A stretch of DNA of 64,000 nt, taken from Candidatus Gottesmanbacteria bacterium UBA6580 (GTDB lineage Bacteria > Patescibacteriota > Microgenomatia > UBA10105 > UBA927). The DNA is taken from the NCBI GenBank assembly GCA_002433895.1, contig DJJA01000003.1:376881-440880 (forward strand), in the 5' to 3' direction. Positions 2,587 to 63,396 of this stretch are shown piece by piece; position 1 is the first letter of the stretch, and each line of letters begins with the position of its first letter. Below the pieces are notes generated by a model, which saw only the letters and a program-made list of their open reading frames with translations, did no database searches and had not been told where the DNA came from. A program made the position numbers and the translations under genes.

Positions 2587-4203
<1,617 letters not shown>

Positions 4204-24023: not shown

Positions 24024-25406
24024 TTAGTGTGCAGCAAGATTTTTTAATTCTTCCATCCGCTTCAGAAGGGCATCTCTGTCGTTTTGTAATGTGCCTGCTT
24101 CGACTTCAGCAAACAACGCGTCTAGTACTTTGCCGATAATGGGGCCGGGTTTAGTGTCATAGAGTTTCATGACATCATGTCCGTTTACGTGTAAATCAGA
24201 AACGGCAAATGGTTGCAGTTGCACTTCTTCCAGCCGTTTTTTGTATAACTCCAGGCGCCACGATGTTTCGGTGGCTCCACCGCCGAGCCTGTCGCCAATC
24301 CGGAGTGCCAGGATATGGGGAAGATTTTCTTTGCCAACTCTTCGGATAAAACGCCGCAACGCGCTATCGGTTTGGCGTTCATCGACGCTGAACTGATGCC
24401 ACCGCACCAAGGTATACAGCAGATCAGATTGTTTTTTGGAGAGCCGTAGTCTCCGCCCGATGTCTTTTGCGATATGGGCACCTGCCACCTCGTGATTGTA
24501 AAACGTGATAAGCCCTGTTTTGTCCTGGCGGAATGTTTTGGGCTTTCCTAAATCATGGATAAGGGTGGCAAGCCGCACCACGGGGTCGGTAGACGGACAG
24601 AACTTCATCGCCATGACCGAGTGGGTGCCTACATCGTATATATGATGCCGTTTAGGGCTTTTTTGCGGAGTGGCAAATGAAGATTCCAGTTCCGGCAAAA
24701 TATAAAGCAGCAAACCGAGATTTTTTAAAACCAATATTGCGTCAGCGGCATGGGTGGCAGTCAGAATTTTAAAAAACTCATCGCGTATGCGCTCCGCCGA
24801 AATTTGTGTGAGAGAGGAGGCGTGCGAGGAGATCGCCTTTGCGGTTTCGTCTTCTATGGTAAAACCCAGCCGCGCGGCAAACCGGACTGCCCGGAGCATG
24901 CGGAGCGCGTCTTCGGCGAACCGTTCAGACGCAATGCCAACCGTGCGGATGCGTTTTTCGTTGAGATCTTTTTGTCCGCCATACGGGTCGATTAAGCTTT
25001 TGCCGTCAAACGCGATCGCGTTTATCGTAAAGTCGCGCCGGGCGAGGTCTTCTGTGAGTGTTTTGCCCCAGGAAATTTTATCCGGGTGGCGGTGATCCTC
25101 GTATCCTTCTTCGCTCCGGTATGTCGTGATTTCGTAAATATCTTCAAGCTCTTCATTTCCGTTTGGCGCGGTGGTATCCCCCTGTTTTCTGATTTTTATA
25201 CCGACCGTCCCAAAGAGGTTGTCATAAAAACTATCGGGGAAAAGCGCGAGAATTTCTTCTGGAGTTGCGTTTGTGGTGAAATCCCAGCCTTTGGTTTCCA
25301 TACCCAGGAGTAAATCCCGTACGGATCCTCCTACTGCATAGGCTTCAAATCCCGCTTTTTTCAGGATGTCGATCACTGTTACCGCTGATTGAGGAAGGCT
25401 GATCAT
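24024..25406 (-). CDS. cca: CCA-adding tRNA nucleotidyltransferase with HD domain
   Basis: GGSVRDLLLG class-II NTase head, HD motif IHDLGK; consistent with tRNA genes lacking encoded CCA. Confidence 0.85.
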   Translation of the reverse strand: MISLPQSAVTVIDILKKAGFEAYAVGGSVRDLLLGMETKGWDFTTNATPEEILALFPDSFYDNLFGTVGIKIRKQGDTTAPNGNEELEDIYEITTYRSEEGYEDHRHPDKISWGKTLTEDLARRDFTINAIAFDGKSLIDPYGGQKDLNEKRIRTVGIASERFAEDALRMLRAVRFAARLGFTIEDETAKAISSHASSLTQISAERIRDEFFKILTATHAADAILVLKNLGLLLYILPELESSFATPQKSPKRHHIYDVGTHSVMAMKFCPSTDPVVRLATLIHDLGKPKTFRQDKTGLITFYNHEVAGAHIAKDIGRRLRLSKKQSDLLYTLVRWHQFSVDERQTDSALRRFIRRVGKENLPHILALRIGDRLGGGATETSWRLELYKKRLEEVQLQPFAVSDLHVNGHDVMKLYDTKPGPIIGKVLDALFAEVEAGTLQNDRDALLKRMEELKNLAAH

Positions 25407-25424
25407 ACTGATATTATACCCCCA

Positions 25425-27098
25425 ATGGCTAAGAAGTGGCAGATAAGTAAACAGTTCACTCCGATCCGATCGGAGTTAACCGCGGAGCTGATCATAGAAG
25501 ATATCCTCAAAGACAGGGGAATTATCACCCCCGCGGAGCGGGCAGCTTTTTTGGCTCCCCCTGATCCTAGCTCGTTGCGGGCAAAAGACGTAGACATTGA
25601 TCCTAAAGCATTGGCAAAAGCGATAGCCCGTATTCAAAAAGCGATAAAGAATAAAGAATCAGTAGTGGTGTATGCCGATTATGATGCGGACGGCATTACT
25701 GCCGGCGCTATCATGTGGGAAACGCTGTGGCACATGGGAGCAAGGGTAATGCCCTACATCCCACACCGCGTGGACGAAGGGTATGGACTATCGGAAAAAG
25801 GAATAGATGCCGTACGCAGCCAATATGACCCCACGCTGATTATTACTGTGGATCACGGGATAACCGCAAAAGAGCAGGTGAAGTACGCCAAAAAACTTGG
25901 AATAGAAGTGATTATTACCGATCACCATGTGAAGCCCGATAAGATACCGGATTGCCAGATTGTGCATACGACACTCCTTTCCGGGAGCGGAGTTTCATGG
26001 TTTGTATCCAAAGAATTACTTGCGGCAAGTGGCAACGATGCCGGTCAACACGAGCGTGAGCTTACCGCGCTTGCGGCGGTAGGTACTATCGCTGATTTGT
26101 TGCCATTAACCGGTATTAACCGGTCTATTGTAAAGTTTGGGCTTGGGGTGCTCCGTAAGACAAATAGGATAGGATTTAACGCGCTTATTACAGAAGCGGG
26201 GATAGCAAAGGAAGCGATAGATACCTATACCGTGTCCCATATGCTCGCCCCGCGGCTTAACGCGATGGGGAGATTAGAACACGCGTTGGACGCGCTACGG
26301 CTGCTTTGTACAAAAGATCAGGTAAAGGCAGATTTACTGGCGCAAAAGTTAGGAACAACTAATAAAGAACGGCAACAGCTCACCATAGATACGGTGACGC
26401 ACGCAAAAGAATTGGTACCAAAAACACTTAAAAATATCATTGTTATATCACATGAATATTATAACCCGGGGGTCATTGGGTTGGTGGCCGGGAGATTGGT
26501 GGAGGAGTATTGGCGGCCATCAATAGTACTTGCCATAGCAGATGGTTTTGCCAAGGCATCTGCCCGCAGTATTCCCGGATTTAATATTGTTGAGGCAATC
26601 AGAAGTTGCAGCGATTTATTGGTAGATGTGGGGGGTCATCCGATGGCGGCAGGTTTTACGGTGGTTGCGGAAAAAATTCCGGCACTCACAAAGCGGCTGG
26701 AAGCGCTCGCGGAAAAAGAGATTGATGAAGAGATGCTCAAGCGTGTGCTGAAAATTGACGCGGAAATACCTTTTACTATGGCTTCGGAATCGCTCTGGCA
26801 GAAGATACAAAAACTGGAGCCGTTTGGATTTGGAAATTATGAGCCGCTCTTCGCGTCTATGGGGGTATTGGTAAGTGATGTCCGCATGATCGGAGCCACC
26901 CGGAAACATCTAAAACTAAAGGTGCATATGCCGGGGTCACAGCGGGTAGTCGATGCGGTGGCGTTTAATATGGCTGAACTTTACGGGAGTTTACAAGGGA
27001 GTGATTCCGTAAACATTGCCTACACCATCGATATGAATGAGTGGAACGGGAAGCGGAATTTGCAGTTAAAGATAAAAGATATAGCAATACCGCAATAA
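25425..27098 (+). CDS. recJ: Single-stranded-DNA-specific exonuclease RecJ
   Basis: DHH motifs (ADYDADGITA, ITVDHGI, ITDHH), DHHA1 domain, C-terminal OB fold; track ORF starts at 25389 overlapping cca, the Met at 25425 is more plausible. Confidence 0.85.
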   Translation: MAKKWQISKQFTPIRSELTAELIIEDILKDRGIITPAERAAFLAPPDPSSLRAKDVDIDPKALAKAIARIQKAIKNKESVVVYADYDADGITAGAIMWETLWHMGARVMPYIPHRVDEGYGLSEKGIDAVRSQYDPTLIITVDHGITAKEQVKYAKKLGIEVIITDHHVKPDKIPDCQIVHTTLLSGSGVSWFVSKELLAASGNDAGQHERELTALAAVGTIADLLPLTGINRSIVKFGLGVLRKTNRIGFNALITEAGIAKEAIDTYTVSHMLAPRLNAMGRLEHALDALRLLCTKDQVKADLLAQKLGTTNKERQQLTIDTVTHAKELVPKTLKNIIVISHEYYNPGVIGLVAGRLVEEYWRPSIVLAIADGFAKASARSIPGFNIVEAIRSCSDLLVDVGGHPMAAGFTVVAEKIPALTKRLEALAEKEIDEEMLKRVLKIDAEIPFTMASESLWQKIQKLEPFGFGNYEPLFASMGVLVSDVRMIGATRKHLKLKVHMPGSQRVVDAVAFNMAELYGSLQGSDSVNIAYTIDMNEWNGKRNLQLKIKDIAIPQ

Positions 27099-27323
27099 AC
27101 AAAAATCCCCACATTCTTACCAGCGCTTCATGCCGGAGAATATGGGGATTATGAATAATAGATTTTCCTCATACACGCTTGGATTGAAAAAGTGAATAAT
27201 TTAATGAATTCACTCCTTCAGAAAAAGCGTGTATAAGGACAAAATGTCGAAATTGGGTGTGAGACCAAAGAAAATACATGGTAAGCAGCAAGTTGCTTAG
27301 TGTTATTTCTTTGTGAGTCTCCT

Positions 27324-27371
27324 GCCCAAAAATAAAACTATGGAGACCTCTCCATAACGAGGTCTCCATAG
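27324..27371 (-). terminator. Intrinsic terminator (minus strand) after small Cys/His-rich ORF
   Basis: 11-bp perfect palindrome CTATGGAGACC/GGTCTCCATAG followed on the minus strand by UUUUAUUUUU. Confidence 0.6.
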
Positions 27372-27389
27372 AGAAGTTTGCCCCCACGC

Positions 27390-27659
27390 CTAATGTGGTT
27401 GTGTCCGCTGTCGACGCTTCGGTTCGTGGCGGTGTTCGTCGTGATGGCTATGGTCGGGGTGTCCTTTGGAACACCACGTGCAAGTATTTTCGCGACCCGG
27501 GGTCGGGGCAGAGCATCTACCACCTTTATGGTGTTTTTTGCTTCTACAGTTGCATGTTGCCACAGACGTTTGTGATTTGGGTGTCAACGCCTGGATGACT
27601 TGTAAAAACATTGATTGTTTTATGGTTACTGGAACTGAACCTGTTCGCCTCTTACTCAT
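27390..27659 (-). CDS. Small Cys/His-rich basic protein (89 aa), unknown function
   Basis: SD AGGAG 7 nt upstream of ATG; CxC...C...CxxC then HPDHSHHDEHRHE His-rich tail; intrinsic terminators on both sides; region is open in several frames, so coding status uncertain. Confidence 0.35.
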   Translation of the reverse strand: MSKRRTGSVPVTIKQSMFLQVIQALTPKSQTSVATCNCRSKKHHKGGRCSAPTPGRENTCTWCSKGHPDHSHHDEHRHEPKRRQRTQPH

Positions 27660-27775
27660 GATTGACTCCTCTTGCTAAATGACTTGCCCGGATAAAATGG
27701 TTGATCGTTAAATTTTTTCACTGCAGACTTCATAAGCAAACCTCTTTTTTGAATTTTTTCGGTGATGTTGTCGGA

Positions 27776-27815
27776 TAAGGAAAAAGACAGAAAAGGACAG
27801 GCTAATTTTCTGTCT
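27776..27815 (-). terminator. Intrinsic terminator (minus strand) after small ORF A
   Basis: AGACAGAAAA/TTTTCTGTCT 10-bp stem, 11-nt loop, U5 tail on the minus strand. Confidence 0.5.
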
Positions 27816-27865
27816 TTATCATTGTCCAAGAACTAACTCTCAAAATTGTTAAGGTGCCAAATACT

Positions 27866-28045
27866 TTACTCTTGTCCCTGTGCCGTTTGTGTGCCAGCAG
27901 CGTTGGCGCTCCCTGTGTCGGGTGCCATAGGAAATATGACCGTCACGGACTGCGCCTCGTTGGTGACGGATGCGATCATCCATGCCACCGGAGGCCGTTT
28001 CTCGGGTACTATTTCTGCCGCTAATTGTTTGTCCGTTTCGTTCAT
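27866..28045 (-). CDS. Small hypothetical protein (59 aa) with strong SD
   Basis: AAGGAG-N6-ATG ribosome binding site; MNETDKQLAAEIVPEKRPPVAWMIASV...; flanked by terminators; a Cys-rich plus-strand ORF overlaps and is the alternative. Confidence 0.35.
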   Translation of the reverse strand: MNETDKQLAAEIVPEKRPPVAWMIASVTNEAQSVTVIFPMAPDTGSANAAGTQTAQGQE

Positions 28046-28164
28046 GTATCTCCTTTGTGCTATCGCCATGTCTTGCTGTCCGCCTAATTCTGAGGCTCAC
28101 AGAACGACTATTGGCGGATTGATGGTTAGTACATTCGCTCGTCTGAACTCGTTTATTTTCTAAC

Positions 28165-28190
28165 CATCAAAAAACCCCTCTTTTGGAGGG
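28165..28190 (-). terminator. Intrinsic terminator / attenuator within the minus-strand leader
   Basis: CCCCUC-CAAAA-GAGGGG hairpin followed by UUUUUU on the minus strand, about 115 nt downstream of a consensus promoter and upstream of small ORF A. Confidence 0.55.
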
Positions 28191-28312
28191 GTTCGTGTGT
28201 TTGGTTTTAAAAAGTTTTTTAAGCTGCCATCACACGACCCCCCCGACATTTCGGAGGTTAATAAGGGTCATAAAGTGTGATTGCTGCCAAGATTTCATAG
28301 TCACAGTCAATT

Positions 28313-28341
28313 ATTATAAATAGACAACTTATCTCTTGTCA
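28313..28341 (-). promoter_or_regulatory. Consensus sigma70 promoter firing leftward (TTGACA-17-TATAAT)
   Basis: Reverse complement reads TTGACAagagataagttgtctatTTATAAT; -35 hexamer overlaps the -35 of the divergent aspS promoter. Confidence 0.5.
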
Positions 28342-28363
28342 ACCGGTAATCGGGCAAATATAA
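28335..28363 (+). promoter_or_regulatory. Sigma70 promoter for the T-box leader and aspS (TTGTCA-17-TATAAT)
   Basis: TTGTCAaccggtaatcgggcaaaTATAAT, perfect -10, 17-nt spacer. Confidence 0.55.
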
Positions 28364-28369
28364 TAAGAA

Positions 28370-28556
28370 ATGAAGTACGCGATGATGGCCTGACAAGCCG
28401 GAGTGGCCCGGGGTAACAACCGGAACGGGTATGCCCGTAATAGCTCTAATAAGATCCGCCTACGCAAAAGCTACGGCGAGATGAAATAAGGTGGTACCGC
28501 GAATTACCCGTTCGCCCTTATACTATTACTAGTAAGGAGAACGGGTTTGTTGTGTC
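28370..28556 (+). promoter_or_regulatory. T-box riboswitch leader, putative Asp specifier (GAC)
   Basis: T-box consensus AAUAAGGUGGUACCGCG at 28485-28502; terminator ACCCGUUC...GAACGGGU + UUUGUUGUGU; candidate specifier loop CCUGACAAG; directly upstream of aspS. Confidence 0.6.
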
Positions 28557-28570
28557 ATAATGATAGATAT

Positions 28571-30454
28571 ATGAGAACACTCGCGTCACAGGTATCGGCA
28601 TTAGAAGGAAAAACGGTTGTATTGCAGGGGTGGGTTCTTGCGCGGCGGGATCATGGCAAGATCATGTTCCTCGACCTCCGGGACCGTTCCGGTGTTGTGC
28701 AGCTTGTTGGAAGTAAATCATTGGGCGATGCGCACGCAGAAGATGTCATAACCGTCACAGGACTGGTGAAGAAGCGGCCAGAATCGATGGTAAATGAAAA
28801 AATTATTTCCGGTACCGTGGAAGTTGAGATACAGGAAATTTCGGTTATTTCCAAAGCCCGTGAGTTGCCGTTTCCCATAGACACTGACGGACACGAAGTA
28901 AATGAAGAAATCAGAGCCAAATACCGCTATCTGGATTTACGCCGTCCCAGGATGGCCCGTAATATCCGATTGCGGAGCAAAGTCGTCAATTTCATCCGTA
29001 ACTTTTTATCAAACCGCGATTTCGTTGAAATAGAAACGCCAGTGCTAACCAAAACGACCCCCGAAGGAGCGAGGGATTTCCTCGTGCCGTCACGTCTGCA
29101 GCCGGGAAAATTTTACGCACTTCCGCAGTCACCACAGCAGTATAAACAGCTTCTGATGGTTGCCGGATTTGAGCGGTATTTCCAGATTGCACGGTGTTTC
29201 CGTGATGAAGACCCCCGCCGTGACCGCGCGTATGGTGAGTTCACCCAGCTCGACATGGAAATGTCATTTGTGACGCAGGATGATATTTTAACGCTTACTG
29301 AGGAGATGTTTACCACCCTCATCCGCCTTATGTTTCCGGCCAAACACATTTCCCAAACTCCCTGGCCGAGGTTGTCACACCGGGAAGTCATGGAGAAGTA
29401 CGGCACTGACAAGCCGGATCTGCGAAAAGATAAAAATGATCCCGATGAATTGGCATTTAGCTGGACAGTTGATTTTCCGCTTTTTAATGAGCAAAAAGAT
29501 GATGATTTCTTTTACGGATCCGGTGGCGCAAAATTTGCGCCGAGCCACCATATGTTTACCGCACCGCATCCCGATGACATCCCGCTTCTTGATACCGATC
29601 CGCTGAAGGTGCGGGGACTGCAGCATGATTTGGTGCTGAACGGATTTGAGGTAGGTGGCGGGAGTATCCGTATCCATCAAGCGGAGGTACAAGCGAAGGT
29701 GTTTGACCTTATTGGATTTAGCGAAAAACAAAAGCAGGAGTTTTCCCACATGCTCACCGCGTTTAGTTATGGTGTGCCGCCACACGGTGGGATCGCGCCC
29801 GGCATCGACCGCCTGATGATGGCGCTTTTGGGAGAGCCGAGCGTGCGGGAGGTCATGGCATTTCCGACATCTGCGTCAGGTGGGACAAGTGTCATGGACG
29901 CGCCCAGTAACGCTTCACCCGAGCAGCTCGTTGAGCTTGGCATTTCCGTAGCAACAATGGGAAACACGAAAGAAGGAGGAGGTAAAGCGGTGTACGAGCG
30001 GATAGTCGGGGACATTAAGGCACTTAAATTGGCATTTGAGCCGTACGAACACGAAGCAGTGCGTACTTCAGAAGATGCCGCCAAAATCCGGAATACGCCA
30101 CTTTATGAAGGCGCAAAAGCCCTCGTGCTGTATGCGGATGAAAAACCGGTCATGGTAGTTGTTCCCGGTGACCGTAAGCTCGATATGAAAGCGTTTAAAT
30201 CGCAGTATCACATCCGTGACCTACGGATGGCAACACCCGCCCAGGTGGAGGAAGTGACCGGTGTTACTATCGGCGCGGTGCCGCCATTTGGACATATATT
30301 TGGCATACCTGCATACATGGACGCAGCGTTTAAGAAAAACTCGCACGTTTCATTTAATGCCGGTCTTCATACCCATTCCATACGGATGAGTGAAAAAGAT
30401 TATGAAAAGATGGCGAAGCCGACTATTGGTGAGTTTTCTAAAATACTTGAATGA
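28571..30454 (+). CDS. aspS: Aspartate--tRNA ligase (GAD-less) fused in frame to a C-terminal YbaK/ProX-type aminoacyl-tRNA deacylase domain
   Basis: N-terminal OB anticodon domain, class II motifs 1 to 3 (FRDED, GGGSIR, GIDRLMMAL), normal AspRS C-terminal SPEQLVELGISV; then about 165 extra residues with a YbaK-like order of motifs (YEHE..KALVL..VVPGDRKLDMKAF..GAVPPFG..SFNAG); ATG at 28571 preferred over the track TTG at 28547. Confidence 0.85.
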   Translation: MRTLASQVSALEGKTVVLQGWVLARRDHGKIMFLDLRDRSGVVQLVGSKSLGDAHAEDVITVTGLVKKRPESMVNEKIISGTVEVEIQEISVISKARELPFPIDTDGHEVNEEIRAKYRYLDLRRPRMARNIRLRSKVVNFIRNFLSNRDFVEIETPVLTKTTPEGARDFLVPSRLQPGKFYALPQSPQQYKQLLMVAGFERYFQIARCFRDEDPRRDRAYGEFTQLDMEMSFVTQDDILTLTEEMFTTLIRLMFPAKHISQTPWPRLSHREVMEKYGTDKPDLRKDKNDPDELAFSWTVDFPLFNEQKDDDFFYGSGGAKFAPSHHMFTAPHPDDIPLLDTDPLKVRGLQHDLVLNGFEVGGGSIRIHQAEVQAKVFDLIGFSEKQKQEFSHMLTAFSYGVPPHGGIAPGIDRLMMALLGEPSVREVMAFPTSASGGTSVMDAPSNASPEQLVELGISVATMGNTKEGGGKAVYERIVGDIKALKLAFEPYEHEAVRTSEDAAKIRNTPLYEGAKALVLYADEKPVMVVVPGDRKLDMKAFKSQYHIRDLRMATPAQVEEVTGVTIGAVPPFGHIFGIPAYMDAAFKKNSHVSFNAGLHTHSIRMSEKDYEKMAKPTIGEFSKILE

Positions 30455-60922: not shown

Positions 60923-60960
60923 TTGACAATTGATTAGCACTTGTTATACTAGAGTGCTAA
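60923..60960 (+). promoter_or_regulatory. lon promoter (TTGACA-16-TATACT) overlapped by a CIRCE-like HrcA operator
   Basis: TTAGCACTT-GTTATACTA-GAGTGCTAA matches TTAGCACTC-N9-GAGTGCTAA in 17 of 18 positions; the -10 lies in the spacer. Confidence 0.6.
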
Positions 60961-60969
60961 TACGTCATT

Positions 60970-63396
60970 ATGAGTACTTCACTCGACAATCCAAATCAGA
61001 TGTTACCAGTTGTCCCGATACGGGACGGCATCGTGTTTCCGGGTACCGAAATGATCCTCACTTTCGGCCGGCAGCGTTCGGTAAAAGCTATTGAAGCAGC
61101 ACAAAATGCCGGTAGGCGGGTTGTGCTCGTCATGCAACGCAACCCCAATATCAATGATCCTACACCGTCTGACTTATACCAGATTGGTACGGTCGGAGAA
61201 ATCGTGCAGATGATGCGCAACGAAGGAGAAATAAATGCGTTGGTGCGCGGTATTTCAAAAGTCGAGCTTACTTCATATGAAGCTGTAGAGCCGTTTTTCG
61301 TGGCGAGAGTGGCTGAGATTGCCGATGTCATTGAGGACGATGAGGAAACCAAAGCTTTATTTAACCACCTCACTAACGAACTCAGACAAGCGGTGAAGCT
61401 TGGGAAAACCATGGACTTTCTGACATTTATGAATATTATGTCCGGCATGTCGCCGGAGACATTGTCGTATCAGCTGGCAGGTGTGATGGATACAAAGCCC
61501 AGCGAACGCCAGGAGCTGTTGGAAATAAATTCCGTAAAAGCCCGTTTTGAAAAAGAAGCGGCGTATCTTGCCAAAGAAGTAAAAGTGTTGGAGTTGGAGA
61601 AAAAAATTGCGACAAAAACCCAAGAGAAATTTGAGAAAAATGTAAAAGAGCAGGTGCTTCGCGAGCGCATAAAAACGATCGAAAAAGAGCTCGGTGACGA
61701 CGATGAGAATAAAGAGTTTAAAGAGCTTGCCGATAAGATCAAAAAGGCAGGCATGCCGCAGGAAGTAAAGGAAAAGGCGGAAAAAGAACTACGCCGCCTC
61801 ACGCAAATGTCCCAATACAATCCGGAAGCCTCTTATGTGCGGACATACCTTGATTGGCTGGTGGAAGTACCGTGGAACGAAGAGAGTGCTAACACCGTCA
61901 ATTTGTCGGATGCGGAGAAGGTGCTTAATCAGGATCACTACGCGTTGGGGAAAATAAAAGAGCGTATTTTAGAGTTTTTGGCTGTGATGAAGTTGCGGAG
62001 TGCGAGTGATGAACCCGCAGAGAAAGCGGAAAAAACTCCAAAGAGTGCGGCCGAAAAAATGACCCCAAAGCGTGGCAGTAAATCCGCGCCAACAATTTTG
62101 TGTTTTGTCGGCCCGCCCGGTGTGGGAAAAACATCCATCGGAAAATCAATTGCCCGTTCGTTGGGACGCAAGTTTGTCAAAATGTCACTGGGTGGCATAC
62201 GGGATGAAGCAGAAATCCGTGGACACCGCAGAACCTATGTAGGAGCGATGCCGGGACGCATCATCCAAGGCATCAAGCAGGCAGGCACCAAAAACCCGGT
62301 ATTTATGTTGGATGAGATCGACAAAGTCGGGGCAGATTTCCGCGGTGACCCATCAGCCGCACTGCTCGAAGCGCTCGATCCGGAGCAAAACTACGCATTT
62401 TCTGATCATTATCTGGAAGTGCCGTATGATTTGTCTGAGGTATTTTTTATCACGACCTGTAACGTACTCGATACAATTCCACCGGCGCTCCGGGACAGAC
62501 TGGAGATTATCCGTTTTGCCGGATACACGGAAGATGAAAAATTCCACATTGCTAAAGACTATCTGTTTGAAAAACAGCGGGTAATCCACGGGGTGCCTAC
62601 TAAAGTTGTTGATATTGCTGATGAAGGGCTCCGGGAAATTATCAGACAATACACCCGGGAAGCAGGGGTGCGTAACCTGGAGCGCGAAATAGCAACCATT
62701 TTCCGGAAGGTTGCCAAAAAGATTGCCGACTCGGACGCAAAAAACAGGAAATCATTTGCGATTAAGCCCGCTGATCTACAGACCTATTTGGGACCCACGA
62801 AATTTACGTCATCCTTGGCAGAGAAGAAGGATGAAGTGGGTATGTCTACCGGACTCGCGTGGACTGAAGCCGGAGGAGATATATTGTTTATCGAGGTCGC
62901 CCTTATGCCGGGCCGCGGAACGCTTATTCTCACCGGTCAACTGGGTGACGTCATGAAAGAATCCGCGCAGGCGGCTATGTCCTACGTGCGGAGCCGATGG
63001 AAGGCGCTCAAGTTACCGGAAAAGTTTTACCAGAAGCTTGATGTTCATGTACACGTACCGGAGGGTGCGGTTCCCAAAGACGGTCCGTCGGCGGGAGCAG
63101 CGATCGCTACCGCGATTGTCTCGGCGCTCAGCAAAAAAGCCGCTAAGCGGTTGGTCGCTATGACCGGAGAAATTACGCTCCGGGGTAGGGTACTCGAGAT
63201 AGGCGGCGTGAAAGAAAAAGTGATTGCGGCGCACAGGGCAGGTATCAAAGATGTGATATTGCCCAAAAATAATAAAAAGGACTTGGAAGATATACCCAAA
63301 GCAGTCATGACCGACCTGAAGTTCCATTTTGTGGAACACATGGACGAGGTGCTCAAGGTAGCCATGCCTTCACTCAAGTTTTCGGCACAAAACTAA
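60970..63396 (+). CDS. lon: ATP-dependent protease Lon
   Basis: LON N-domain, Walker [11 protein letters not shown]16 catalytic DGPSAG with K dyad; Lys/Glu-rich insertion around residues 335-375. Confidence 0.95.

What the first reader, a model, noticed from the sequence alone, without database searches (positions are those of the whole stretch)
27099..28370. A 1.3-kb island between recJ and aspS without long credible ORFs but dense in promoters, hairpins, terminators and two RBS-equipped mini-ORFs
In an otherwise tightly packed genome this stretch holds a consensus leftward promoter, a structured leader with terminator, a 59-aa ORF and another terminator. It also holds an 89-aa Cys/His-rich ORF, a third terminator, and further long hairpins at 27170-27320. 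Several frames on both strands are simultaneously open around 27.4-27.6 kb, which is unusual for protein-coding DNA. The island could be a small regulatory RNA/peptide locus, a metal-responsive module, or a degraded element.
Basis: seen in the sequence. Interest (0 to 1): 0.6.

Follow-up and report, generated by a model that had tools for sequence, protein, structure and literature searches.

The report
Conserved mini-operon with structured RNA ends
The "empty" 1.3 kb between recJ and aspS is a conserved leftward mini-operon of an uncultivated Gottesmanbacteria lineage: a very strong promoter, an RNA on/off switch, two real but unknown tiny proteins and a highly structured RNA tail, none of which match any described family.

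Summary
On the minus strand, in order:
- the only 12/12 sigma-70 promoter in the window
- a 144-nt leader ending in a hairpin plus U-tract
- a 59-aa gene (B)
- a hairpin plus U-tract
- an 89-aa basic Cys/His gene (A)
- about 270 nt of consecutive hairpins ending in a terminator that abuts the recJ stop codon

The block sits between recJ and aspS in every fetched relative that carries both flanks. It is therefore neither junk nor a degraded element.

Genes A and B are under purifying selection (dN/dS 0.15-0.46). Their families are tiny, and they have no Pfam, NCBIfam, PADLOC or PDB relative.

The 3' hairpins covary strongly, and G·U pairs place the RNA on the minus strand.

In the leader, an invariant strand (GGGUCGUGUG) can pair in two ways. 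It pairs upstream to close a conserved hairpin, or downstream with the 5' half of the terminator. That is a terminator/antiterminator switch.

The trigger is unproven. My best guess is translation of a conserved, nearly leaderless 22-26-codon mini-ORF. The main rival is a ligand- or protein-binding hairpin.

Rfam has no match for any of it. A metal role for the locus was not tested. An Asp T-box lies just outside the interval.

The parts
28313..28342 (-). Promoter of the island operon: TTGACA-18 nt-TATAAT. Its -35 hexamer overlaps the -35 of the rightward aspS promoter.
   Evidence: 12/12. (the only 12/12 in the window). Conserved in 20 of the loci read, including the most distant one, L009.
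28169..28312 (-). Leader RNA, acting as a transcription attenuator. It consists of a long hairpin (P1-P2-P3), an A/U-rich linker and terminator T1.
   Evidence: Fold z = -4.4. 19 distinct homologues aligned. No Rfam match. Single copy in the window.
28230..28298 (-). Conserved mini-ORF inside the leader (MKSWQQSHFMTLINLRNVGGVV*). Its UGA stop lies inside the shared strand. An in-frame GTG at 28304 lies 8 nt after the -10.
   Evidence: The ORF is present in all 21 leaders. The start codon is AUG or GUG, 8-14 nt after the -10. The distance from the start to the AUUA anchor is 36, 33 or 30 nt, always a multiple of 3. Translation has not been shown.
28236..28269 (-). P2-P3 hairpin: GACCC / UUAUUAAC internal loop / CUCCGA-loop-UCGGGG / GGGUC.
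   Evidence: P2 covaries (CG:14, AU:4). P3 changes CUCCGA/UCGGAG to CUUCGA/UCGAAG (read). The same architecture appears in every clade.
28223..28241 (-). Shared strand (segment 2), GGGGUCGUGUGAUGGCAGC. It pairs either with segment 1 (28275-28288, together with the P2 5' strand) or with segment 3.
   Evidence: Both duplexes are found in 15 of 15 representatives. The 2:3 duplex has z = -2.9 to -7.2 in all. The 1:2 duplex reaches z <= -3 in 10 of 15.
28188..28199 (-). Segment 3, CACACGAACCCC. It is the partner of segment 2 in the antiterminator and also forms the 5' half of the T1 stem.
   Evidence: 87.9% of cells pair, versus 25-58% when the partner columns are slid. L009 carries compensatory changes. 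The antiterminator is the MFE of the partial transcript in 10 of 14 sequences.
28169..28193 (-). Terminator T1: AACCCCUCC-loop-GGAGGGGUU followed by U6.
   Evidence: The stem covaries (4 pairs changed on both sides). In several relatives gene B starts 15-20 nt after the U-tract with no room for a promoter.
27866..28045 (-). Gene B, 59 aa, with the conserved core RPPVxWxIAxVTxExxSVTVxFP. The N- and C-terminal tails are variable; the C-terminal tail is acidic in several homologues.
   Evidence: Homologues in 21 loci besides the window. 17 clusters among 5.8 billion proteins. dN/dS 0.16-0.46. AF2 predicts one confident beta-hairpin at residues 22-39.
27847..27858 (-). Conserved motif GCACCUUAACA just after the gene B stop. 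Role unknown.
   Evidence: Alignment.
27779..27820 (-). Hairpin T2 plus U5, between genes B and A. Probably a partial terminator.
   Evidence: Compensatory stem changes between clades: AGACAGAAA/UUUCUGUCU, AGACGGAA/UUCCGUCU, GUACAGUGC/GCACUGUCC.
27390..27659 (-). Gene A, 89 aa, basic. Invariant residues include C36, C38, C49, A51, T53, C60, C63, K65, H67, H70 and H73.
   Evidence: dN/dS 0.15-0.31. Only 12 representatives among 1.84 billion proteins.
27328..27371 (-). Hairpin T3. A U-tract follows it only in the window lineage.
   Evidence: helix 1: 100% paired, 3 pairs changed on both sides. The U-tract is absent in most relatives.
27255..27327 (-). Hairpin X, about 73 nt, with a covarying apical stem.
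   Evidence: helix 2.
27167..27248 (-). Mini-hairpin M (GACAUUUUGUC) plus hairpin Y. Y has an invariant internal loop (UUUUUCU / CAAUCNAA) and is the most conserved sequence of the island.
   Evidence: helices 3-5. The covariance model finds one copy per locus (102 bits). Y is not coding: region lengths of 81-87 nt are not multiples of 3.
27101..27150 (-). Hairpin Z plus U-tract. This is the terminator of the leftward unit and abuts the recJ stop codon (27096-27098).
   Evidence: helices 6-8: 9 pairs changed on both sides; invariant U·G pair at columns 259/294. The U-tract is on the minus strand only (read from the sequence).
28336..28364 (+). Adjacent, separate unit: the aspS promoter, TTGTCA-17-TATAAT.
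   Evidence: 11/12.
28373..28522 (+). Adjacent, separate unit: a T-box leader of aspS with a GAC (Asp) specifier in the CUGACAA loop.
   Evidence: RF00230, 42.2 bits, E = 1.7e-7, below the gathering score of 93. The AAGGUGGUACCGCG box is present. It is conserved in relatives.

Best explanation
The island is one leftward transcription unit that is fixed between recJ and aspS in a Gottesmanbacteria lineage.

**Shown:**
- A consensus promoter drives a 144-nt leader, two small proteins (B, then A) and a roughly 270-nt hairpin-rich 3' region. The unit ends at a terminator (Z) that abuts the recJ stop codon.
- The leader can adopt two mutually exclusive folds. In one, the invariant strand GGGUCGUGUG(AUG) closes a long hairpin (P1-P2-P3), which leaves ACCCC free to form terminator T1. 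In the other, the same strand pairs with CACACGAACCCC, which is the 5' half of T1.

**Inferred:**
- T1 is a conditional terminator, so expression of B and A needs the second fold. In several relatives gene B starts 15-20 nt after T1, with no room for its own promoter.

**Inferred, least certain (my estimates):**
- About 35%: the choice is made by ribosomes translating the conserved, almost leaderless 22-26-codon mini-ORF. This ORF runs through the hairpin and stops in or just after the shared strand. A ribosome held on the 5' side of the hairpin frees the shared strand for the antiterminator (ON). No translation, or a ribosome sitting on the stop codon, gives termination (OFF).
- About 45% combined: the hairpin, with its invariant UUAUUAMC internal loop, is instead stabilised by a small ligand or a protein.

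The hairpins T3-X-M-Y-Z are RNA structures of the same strand. They are most simply a structured 3' UTR, or a 3'-derived small RNA that shares terminator Z.
For: **Synteny and conservation**
- Among the 11 genome-collection loci, all 8 that carry both recJ and aspS have the block between them.
- So does every gene-B contig that reaches the flanking genes, and 6 true hits of a metagenome pattern scan carry the leader.

**Promoter**
- 12/12 match, unique in the window, and conserved.

**Genes A and B**
- dN/dS 0.15-0.46, with an excess of third-position changes.
- Both have Shine-Dalgarno sequences (read from the sequence).

**Leader**
- P2 and T1 covary. No shuffle of 500 reaches the observed value on four of five measures.
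- RNAalifold itself pairs CGUGUG with CACACG.
- The 2:3 duplex is significant in 15 of 15 sequences and the 1:2 duplex in most.
- L009 has compensatory changes in the 2:3 duplex.
- The two folds are close in energy. The antiterminator is the MFE of the nascent transcript in 10 of 14 sequences.
- The hairpin architecture is common to all clades.

**Mini-ORF**
- The start codon (AUG or GUG) is kept at 8-14 nt from the -10.
- The ORF is open in 21 of 21 leaders, including L009.
- By eye, 5 of about 6 length changes are multiples of three. The non-coding Y region shows no such periodicity.
- The 808-aa gene at 60970 also has a short leader without a Shine-Dalgarno sequence.
- Leaderless short ORFs acting as attenuators have a precedent in mycobacteria (bioRxiv 10.1101/834739; abstract seen).

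**Tail**
- 98.6% of cells pair, versus about 44% when slid.
- 19 pairs change on both sides; 0 of 500 shuffles reach this.
- 47 G·U cells against 5 A·C cells place the RNA on the minus strand (counted).
- Folding energies agree with that strand assignment.
Against: - There are no expression data. Transcript ends, read-through and translation are all inferred.
- The mini-ORF has no Shine-Dalgarno sequence and no run of one codon, unlike classical attenuators. A 1-nt indel shifts its last codons in about half of the clades while the nucleotide sequence stays invariant. That part is therefore conserved as RNA, not as peptide.
- The antiterminator shows no column-wise covariation in the MAFFT alignment, because it is nearly invariant. 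Its support is conserved complementarity plus one divergent lineage.
- The 1:2 pairing is weak in the L008 clade and in L009.
- L009 keeps the promoter, leader and terminator but lacks A and B. The leader may therefore have a role of its own.
- I found no promoter for the tail, and T3 carries a U-tract in this window. How much transcript reaches X-Y-Z here is unknown.
Confidence: 0.6

Rival explanations
1. The leader is a riboswitch-like or protein-binding attenuator that needs no translation. A small molecule, ion or protein binds the P2-P3 hairpin at its invariant UUAUUAMC internal loop. This stabilises the hairpin and causes termination at T1. The binding protein could be the basic Zn-type protein A, acting in autoregulation.
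For: - The invariant nucleotides sit in an asymmetric internal loop and in the shared strand. The shared strand is conserved whatever the reading frame.
- P2 and P3 covary.
- The layout is a classic expression platform.
- The mini-ORF has no Shine-Dalgarno sequence.
- Gene A is basic and Cys/His-rich, which suits a nucleic-acid binder.
Against: - No Rfam family matches, even at E <= 10.
- The element is a single hairpin with no multi-helix junction.
- It occurs in one narrow clade and essentially one gene context, so there is no clue to a ligand.
- Length changes in multiples of three and a retained start codon would be unexpected for a purely non-coding RNA.
- L009 keeps the leader without gene A. 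This argues against autoregulation by A as the only role.
Confidence: 0.3
2. The leader is a stand-alone small RNA of about 130 nt, possibly a dual-function RNA that also encodes the 22-aa peptide. It has its own promoter and terminator. B and A are expressed only by leakage through T1, and the alternative pairing is incidental.
For: - A strong promoter followed by a strong terminator gives a defined short transcript.
- L009 retains exactly this unit while lacking B and A.
- Terminated attenuator RNAs and their leader peptides can act in trans. One example is rnTrpL/peTrpL (PMC7298713; abstract seen).
Against: - In several relatives B follows T1 within 15-20 nt and has no promoter.
- The 2:3 complementarity overlaps the terminator stem and is kept in all 15 representatives tested. 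That is hard to explain unless read-through is regulated.
Confidence: 0.15
3. It is a metal-responsive module. Protein A is a metal-binding or metal-storage protein, and the leader senses a metal ion.
For: A has 5 invariant Cys, 3 invariant His and a His-rich tail, HPDHSHHDEHRH.
Against: - No match to the NiCo, Mn, Mg or other ion riboswitch families.
- No metal transporter or regulator lies nearby.
- The Cys/His pattern fits a structural zinc site in a basic nucleic-acid-binding protein equally well.
- The AF2 model of A is poor (pLDDT 61).
Confidence: 0.1
4. It is junk, a degraded mobile element, or a toxin-antitoxin-type selfish cassette.
For: - The island has somewhat lower G+C than its flanks in places (0.38-0.40).
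- It contains a pair of small genes, B (acidic tail in several homologues) and A (basic), which superficially resembles an antitoxin-toxin pair.
Against: - The position is fixed between the same two housekeeping genes across relatives with 58-89% RecJ identity.
- A and B are under purifying selection.
- Y and the leader are single copy.
- There are no PADLOC, Pfam or NCBIfam hits.
- No transposase or terminal repeats were seen.
Confidence: 0.03

Closest known systems
Ribosome-dependent transcription attenuators (trp/his/leu-type leaders; leaderless short-ORF attenuators of mycobacteria, bioRxiv 10.1101/834739)
   Same: - Four RNA segments with mutually exclusive 1:2, 2:3 and 3:4 pairings.
- An intrinsic terminator directly upstream of the regulated genes.
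- A short ORF that overlaps segments 1-2 and stops at the shared strand.
- A start codon almost at the transcript's 5' end.
   Different: - No run of a diagnostic codon, so the signal sensed is unknown.
- No Shine-Dalgarno sequence.
- The regulated genes are two unknown small proteins, not a biosynthetic operon.
- Translation is not shown.
- The peptide's central part (HFMTLI[TN]LR) is conserved, but that stretch is also RNA structure.
Transcriptional riboswitches and protein-dependent attenuators (for example PyrR-type, or ribosomal-protein leaders)
   Same: - A conserved, covarying hairpin with invariant unpaired nucleotides.
- It is followed by a competing antiterminator and terminator.
   Different: - No Rfam family matches.
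- No ligand or binding protein is identified.
- A single narrow clade and one gene context.
- The sensor would be one hairpin with an 8-nt asymmetric loop.
3'-UTR-derived small RNAs that share the terminator of their mRNA (named from my own knowledge, not from a tool result)
   Same: A conserved structured RNA lies between the last stop codon and the operon terminator. It is on the mRNA strand and has no recognisable promoter of its own.
   Different: - Here there are four or five consecutive hairpins covering about 270 nt.
- No processing site, target or chaperone is known.
- Nothing is known about RNA processing in these organisms.
T-box leaders with a very short Stem I whose specifier sits in a terminal loop (recalled from the actinobacterial ileS T-boxes; applies to the neighbouring aspS leader only)
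   Same: - The T-box sequence AAGGUGGUACCGCG.
- A GAC specifier followed by A in a terminal loop.
- The downstream helix appears to sequester the Shine-Dalgarno sequence rather than form a U-tract terminator.
   Different: - It scores 42 bits against the Rfam gathering score of 93.
- It is in a Patescibacteria genome and serves aspS.
- It is not part of the leftward unit.

Membership tests
Any Rfam 15 family (island, both strands) | A covariance-model score at or above the family's gathering threshold. | tested here: not met
   One search found only two tRNAs in the window. One search, at E <= 10, gave only sub-threshold chance matches in 27099-28370 (miRNA-type hairpins; Phe and Trp leader at 16-19 bits).
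Ribosome-dependent (leader-peptide) attenuator | Alternative 1:2, 2:3 and 3:4 pairings that end in an intrinsic terminator. | tested here: met
   T1 has a 9-bp G+C-rich stem followed by U6.
Ribosome-dependent (leader-peptide) attenuator | A short ORF with a functional start site that overlaps segment 1 and ends near segment 2. | tested here: inconclusive
   The ORF and its start codon are conserved in 21 of 21 leaders, with in-frame length changes. There is no Shine-Dalgarno sequence, and the 5' UTR would be at most about 7 nt. Translation cannot be tested with these tools.
Ribosome-dependent (leader-peptide) attenuator | A cluster of codons for the amino acid that is sensed. | tested here: not met
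   None of the leader peptides contains a repeated codon run.
Riboswitch | A conserved aptamer with covarying helices and invariant unpaired nucleotides, joined to an expression platform. | tested here: inconclusive
   The hairpin with covarying P2 and P3 and the invariant UUAUUAMC loop is present. It is a single hairpin from about 19 closely related sequences.
Riboswitch | Direct, selective binding of a ligand that changes gene expression. | not testable with these tools
   This needs in-line probing or termination assays.
Intrinsic (Rho-independent) terminator | A G+C-rich hairpin immediately followed by a U-tract on the transcribed strand. | tested here: met
   T1 (28193-28169) and Z (27150-27101) meet this in nearly all relatives. 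T3 is called by the scan but has a U-tract only in the window lineage. T2 has an A/U-rich stem plus U5.
T-box leader (RF00230), neighbouring element at 28373-28522 | The T-box sequence, a Stem I specifier codon that matches the downstream aaRS, and an Rfam gathering-level score. | tested here: inconclusive
   The T-box sequence and a GAC specifier upstream of aspS are present and conserved. The score is 42.2, below the gathering score of 93.
Known protein families for A and B (Pfam, NCBIfam, PADLOC, PDB sequences, PDB folds) | A significant profile or fold match. | tested here: not met
   The best Pfam hit for A is TIL_2 at E = 0.041, below its cut-off.
Dispersed repeat (REP or MITE) for hairpin Y and the leader | Multiple copies per genome. 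| tested here: not met
   The covariance model R1 finds one copy per locus across 291 kb. The leader motifs are single copy in the window.

The most novel reading that the evidence does not exclude
The leader is a previously undescribed class of cis-regulatory RNA. It is either a new riboswitch or a leaderless-ORF attenuator that reports ribosome status. It controls a lineage-specific pair of small proteins, one of them a basic zinc-type nucleic-acid binder. Hairpin Y, at the 3' end, is a new functional RNA motif that works together with these proteins.
Probability: 0.3. Interest if true: 0.65.

Novelty: new variant of a known kind. Interest (0 to 1): 0.45.

Why it matters
- **Little is known about regulation in these bacteria.** Candidate Phyla Radiation bacteria have tiny, tightly packed genomes. 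Almost nothing is known about how they regulate genes, because nearly none are cultivated.
- **The locus is unusually prominent.** It spends 1.3 kb and the best promoter in 64 kb on two unannotated micro-proteins and about 400 nt of conserved structured RNA. That suggests an abundant, lineage-specific function.
- **It offers concrete experiments.** The attenuator can be tested in vitro with heterologous RNA polymerase. Two new small-protein families and a highly conserved RNA hairpin (Y) are also available for binding studies.
- **It illustrates an annotation gap.** Several gene callers missed or mis-extended these genes.

Tried and rejected
- **Rfam.** Searches at the gathering threshold and at E <= 10 gave nothing for the island.
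- **Protein libraries for A, B and the extra Zn-ribbon ORF of L019.** Pfam, NCBIfam and PADLOC gave nothing.
- **Solved structures.** A PDB sequence-profile search and Foldseek on the AF2 models gave nothing. Model A has low confidence.
- **Word-based search with protein A alone.** No hit. Profile searches then found only 6-12 relatives.
- **Longer "relatives" of A (113-186 aa).** These are gene-calling run-ons into the hairpin region or upstream DNA, not informative fusions.
- **Metagenome scan for the leader motif.** Only 6 true hits plus 1 chance hit, so the clade is narrow and no new gene context appeared.
- **A promoter for the 3' hairpin region.** No positionally conserved sigma-70-like site.
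- **Coding potential of hairpin Y (the 72-aa ORF at 27169-27387).** Rejected. The frame is not kept across the loop, and lengths are not multiples of 3.
- **Y as a dispersed repeat.** Rejected.
- **RNA on the recJ strand.** Rejected on G·U counts and folding energies.
- **Column-wise covariation for the antiterminator.** None, because the helix is nearly invariant and L009 is misaligned by MAFFT.
- **Identity of GGGGGUCGUGUG to the tRNA-Pro(GGG) anticodon arm.** Noted, but the search gave no more matches than chance, so I treat it as coincidence.
- **Literature search.** Nothing on this locus.
Full report
**Origin and setting.** The closest genome match is Candidatus Gottesmanbacteria UBA5942 (L001, RecJ 89% identical). 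The other relatives are labelled Gottesmanbacteria or Patescibacteria, or are mislabelled MAGs. The window carries secF, a CCA-adding/poly(A) polymerase-type gene, recJ (25389-27098, +), the island, aspS (from about 28547, +) and a D-Ala-D-Ala carboxypeptidase. Of the 11 genome loci fetched, 8 contain both recJ and aspS. In those the spacer measures 722-1775 bp, and 1165-1493 bp in most. Nucleotide similarity to the window runs through the spacer. It is highest at 27101-27308 and 28164-28427. The opposite is found.

**Checking the observation.** All listed features are present.
- The leftward promoter TTGACA-18-TATAAT (28342->28313) is a 12/12 match. It is the only one in 64 kb, and only four sites reach 11/12.
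- One of those four is the rightward aspS promoter (28336-28364). Its -35 hexamer overlaps that of the leftward promoter.
- The leader folds better than shuffled sequence (z = -4.4).
- The 27100-27400 stretch folds far better (z = -11.9).
- The generic scan counts are no higher than chance, so conservation has to carry the argument.
- Five ORFs of 61 aa or more overlap at 27.34-27.68 kb. Only the 89-aa minus-strand frame finds protein-level relatives in six other loci (E = 1e-16 to 1e-48). The other frames match only the closest relative or match weakly.

**The two small genes are real.**
- *Gene A* (27659->27390) has invariant C36, C38, C49, A51, T53, C60, C63, K65, H67, H70 and H73. Both of its tails are very basic.
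- *Gene B* (28045->27866) has the core RPPVxWxIAxVTxExxSVTVxFP between variable tails.
- Pairwise codon analysis gives dN/dS of 0.15-0.31 for A and 0.16-0.46 for B. Differences are concentrated at third positions.
- Both genes have Shine-Dalgarno sequences.
- Both families are tiny. A has 12 representatives among 1.84 billion proteins. B has 17 clusters among 5.8 billion.
- Every B homologue whose contig is long enough lies between aspS and recJ.
- No Pfam, NCBIfam, PADLOC or PDB relative was found.
- AlphaFold gives B one confident beta-hairpin (residues 22-39, pLDDT about 95) with disordered tails. A gets a poor model. Fold searches found nothing.
- Longer database "relatives" of A are run-on gene calls.
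- The L008 clade carries a different small basic Cys-containing ORF at the position of A. L019 and L020 carry an extra 80-aa Zn-ribbon-like ORF between T1 and B.

**The leader.** I aligned 19 of the 21 distinct leaders. Each of the 19 folds into one long imperfect hairpin. From outside to inside it has:
- an outer P1;
- a 3-nt bulge;
- P2 (AUGACCC/GGGUCGU);
- an asymmetric internal loop (UUAUUAMC);
- P3 (CUCCGA/UCGGAG) with a variable tetraloop.

The L008 clade and L009 keep this architecture with different sequences. P2 and the terminator stem covary, and no shuffle of 500 reaches the observed value on four of five measures.

The 3' strand of the hairpin, GGGUCGUGUG(AUG), is almost invariant. 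It is also complementary to CACACGAACCC(C), which is the 5' half of terminator T1.
- RNAalifold picks up this pairing by itself.
- 87.9% of cells pair, versus 25-58% when the partner columns are slid.
- The duplex is far stronger than with shuffled partners in all 15 representatives (z = -2.9 to -7.2).
- In L009 both strands have changed (GGUUUCAUGG / CCAUGAAGCC) and the pairing is kept.
- For transcripts cut before the 3' half of T1, the antiterminator is the minimum-energy fold in 10 of 14 sequences, and the hairpin is in the other 4. The two states are close in energy, as expected for a switch.
- In several relatives gene B begins 15-20 nt after the U-tract of T1 with no space for a promoter. 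Expression of B therefore requires read-through.

This is the strongest argument that T1 is an attenuator and not simply the end of a small-RNA gene. One caveat applies: because the antiterminator is nearly invariant, it has no column-wise covariation.

**What flips the switch?** A start codon lies 8-14 nt after the -10 in all 21 leaders (AUG; GUG in the L008 clade). It opens a 21-26-codon frame that runs through the hairpin. The frame stops either at the UGA inside GUGUGAUG or, in clades with one extra nucleotide, at the conserved GCAUAA. The distance from the start codon to the AUUA anchor is 36, 33 or 30 nt. By my count, five of about six length changes are multiples of three. The non-coding Y region varies freely, at 81-87 nt.

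This suggests the frame is translated, as in ribosome-dependent attenuation. The 808-aa gene at 60970 also has a short leader without a Shine-Dalgarno sequence. Leaderless short ORFs acting as attenuators are known in mycobacteria (10.1101/834739).

Three points weigh against it:
- there is no Shine-Dalgarno sequence;
- there is no run of a diagnostic codon;
- the shared strand is conserved as nucleotides in both reading frames.

I therefore rate the ribosome trigger at about 35% and ligand or protein binding to the hairpin at about 45%. The remainder goes to other options, including a stand-alone or dual-function small RNA. L009 supports that last option. It keeps the promoter, leader, mini-ORF and terminator but has no A or B, and a tRNA-Gly(UCC) gene follows on the same strand.

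**Between and after the genes.** A hairpin plus U5 (27820->27779) separates B from A. Its stem changes in a compensatory way between clades. I read it as a partial terminator that sets the B:A ratio, but this is inference.

After A come hairpin T3, a 73-nt hairpin X, a mini-hairpin M, hairpin Y and hairpin Z.
- On an alignment of 11 distinct sequences, 98.6% of cells pair, versus about 44% when slid.
- 19 of 60 pairs change on both sides. No shuffle of 500 reaches any of the five measures.
- 47 cells are G·U, and only 5 are A·C (which would be G·U on the other strand). One U·G pair in Z is invariant.
- The gene-strand fold is the more stable one in most loci.

The RNA is therefore on the minus strand and is not a recJ 3' UTR.

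Z is followed by a U-tract on the minus strand only, and it abuts the recJ stop codon. T3 has a U-tract only in the window lineage. No conserved promoter precedes X. The simplest reading is a structured 3' UTR, or a 3'-derived small RNA, that ends at Z.

Y is the best-conserved sequence of the island. Its internal loop (UUUUUCU / CAAUCNAA) is invariant. It is single copy per locus and it is not coding. L008 and L012 carry a hairpin with a different sequence but the same architecture at that position. Its function is unknown.

**Comparison with known systems, and verdict.** The unit works like a classical attenuator-controlled operon, but it belongs to no described family. The leader, Y, A and B have no match in Rfam, Pfam, NCBIfam, PADLOC or the PDB. 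It is a new variant of a known kind. It is confined to one Gottesmanbacteria lineage, and only 6 further leader loci turned up in 241 million metagenome records. A metal-related role for A remains possible but untested. The degraded-element reading is excluded.

Noticed in passing
window 28373-28522 (+): A T-box leader lies upstream of aspS. It has a GAC (Asp) specifier followed by A in a 7-nt terminal loop (CUGACAA) on a very short Stem I. The downstream helix seems to sequester the AAGGAG ribosome-binding site rather than form a U-tract terminator. It scores 42 bits, below the Rfam gathering score of 93, so standard annotation would miss it. It is conserved in relatives.
   Followed up: partly
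window 28313-28364: The leftward (12/12) and rightward (11/12) promoters are back to back, and their -35 hexamers overlap on the same 7 bp (TTGTCAA / TTGACAA). RNA polymerase binding to the two may be mutually exclusive. The arrangement is conserved in relatives.
   Followed up: partly
window 4156-4168 (-) and 28229-28240 (-): The shared strand of the leader (GGGGGUCGUGUG) is identical over 12 nt to the anticodon loop and 3' anticodon stem of the tRNA-Pro(GGG) gene at 4130-4203. The 13-mer search with up to 2 mismatches found no more matches than chance, so this is probably coincidence. It was not checked in relatives.
   Followed up: partly
window 28547-30454 (+); L012, L014, L021: AspRS here is about 630 aa and carries a C-terminal YbaK/tRNA_edit (PF04073) domain fused to the class II core. 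The fusion is conserved in relatives.
   Followed up: no
L009 3485-3830: The most distant relative has a 722-bp recJ-aspS spacer. It keeps the promoter, the leader with its mini-ORF and the terminator, but lacks genes A and B. A tRNA-Gly(UCC) gene follows on the same strand.
   Followed up: partly
L019 1224-1466; L020; L028: Some relatives have an extra 80-aa ORF with CxxC...CxxC (Zn-ribbon-like) inserted between terminator T1 and gene B. The L008 clade has a different small basic Cys-containing ORF in place of gene A.
   Followed up: no
window 27656-27733 (-): A 25-codon ORF (MKSAVKKFNDQPFYPGKSFSKRSQS) ends in ATGA, overlapping the start codon of gene A. That arrangement is typical of translational coupling. 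In L001 the frame stops earlier, and the region is not conserved in more distant relatives.
   Followed up: partly
window 28060-28165 (-); L005, L012, L027: A roughly 105-nt insert with its own hairpins (GAUGGUUAG...CUAACCAUC and CCGCC...GGCGG) lies between T1 and gene B in the window lineage and a few others. Most relatives lack it, and gene B follows T1 directly.
   Followed up: no
L004, L005, L008, L013 (between hairpin Z and the recJ stop); L003 11686-12450: Several relatives have one or two further strong hairpins (about 100 nt) between Z and recJ. L003 has an insertion of roughly 700 nt there.
   Followed up: no
window 60923-60972 (+): An 11/12 promoter lies 19 nt upstream of the ATG of an 808-aa ORF, with no Shine-Dalgarno sequence. 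This suggests that short leaders lacking a Shine-Dalgarno sequence are used for ordinary genes in this genome.
   Followed up: no
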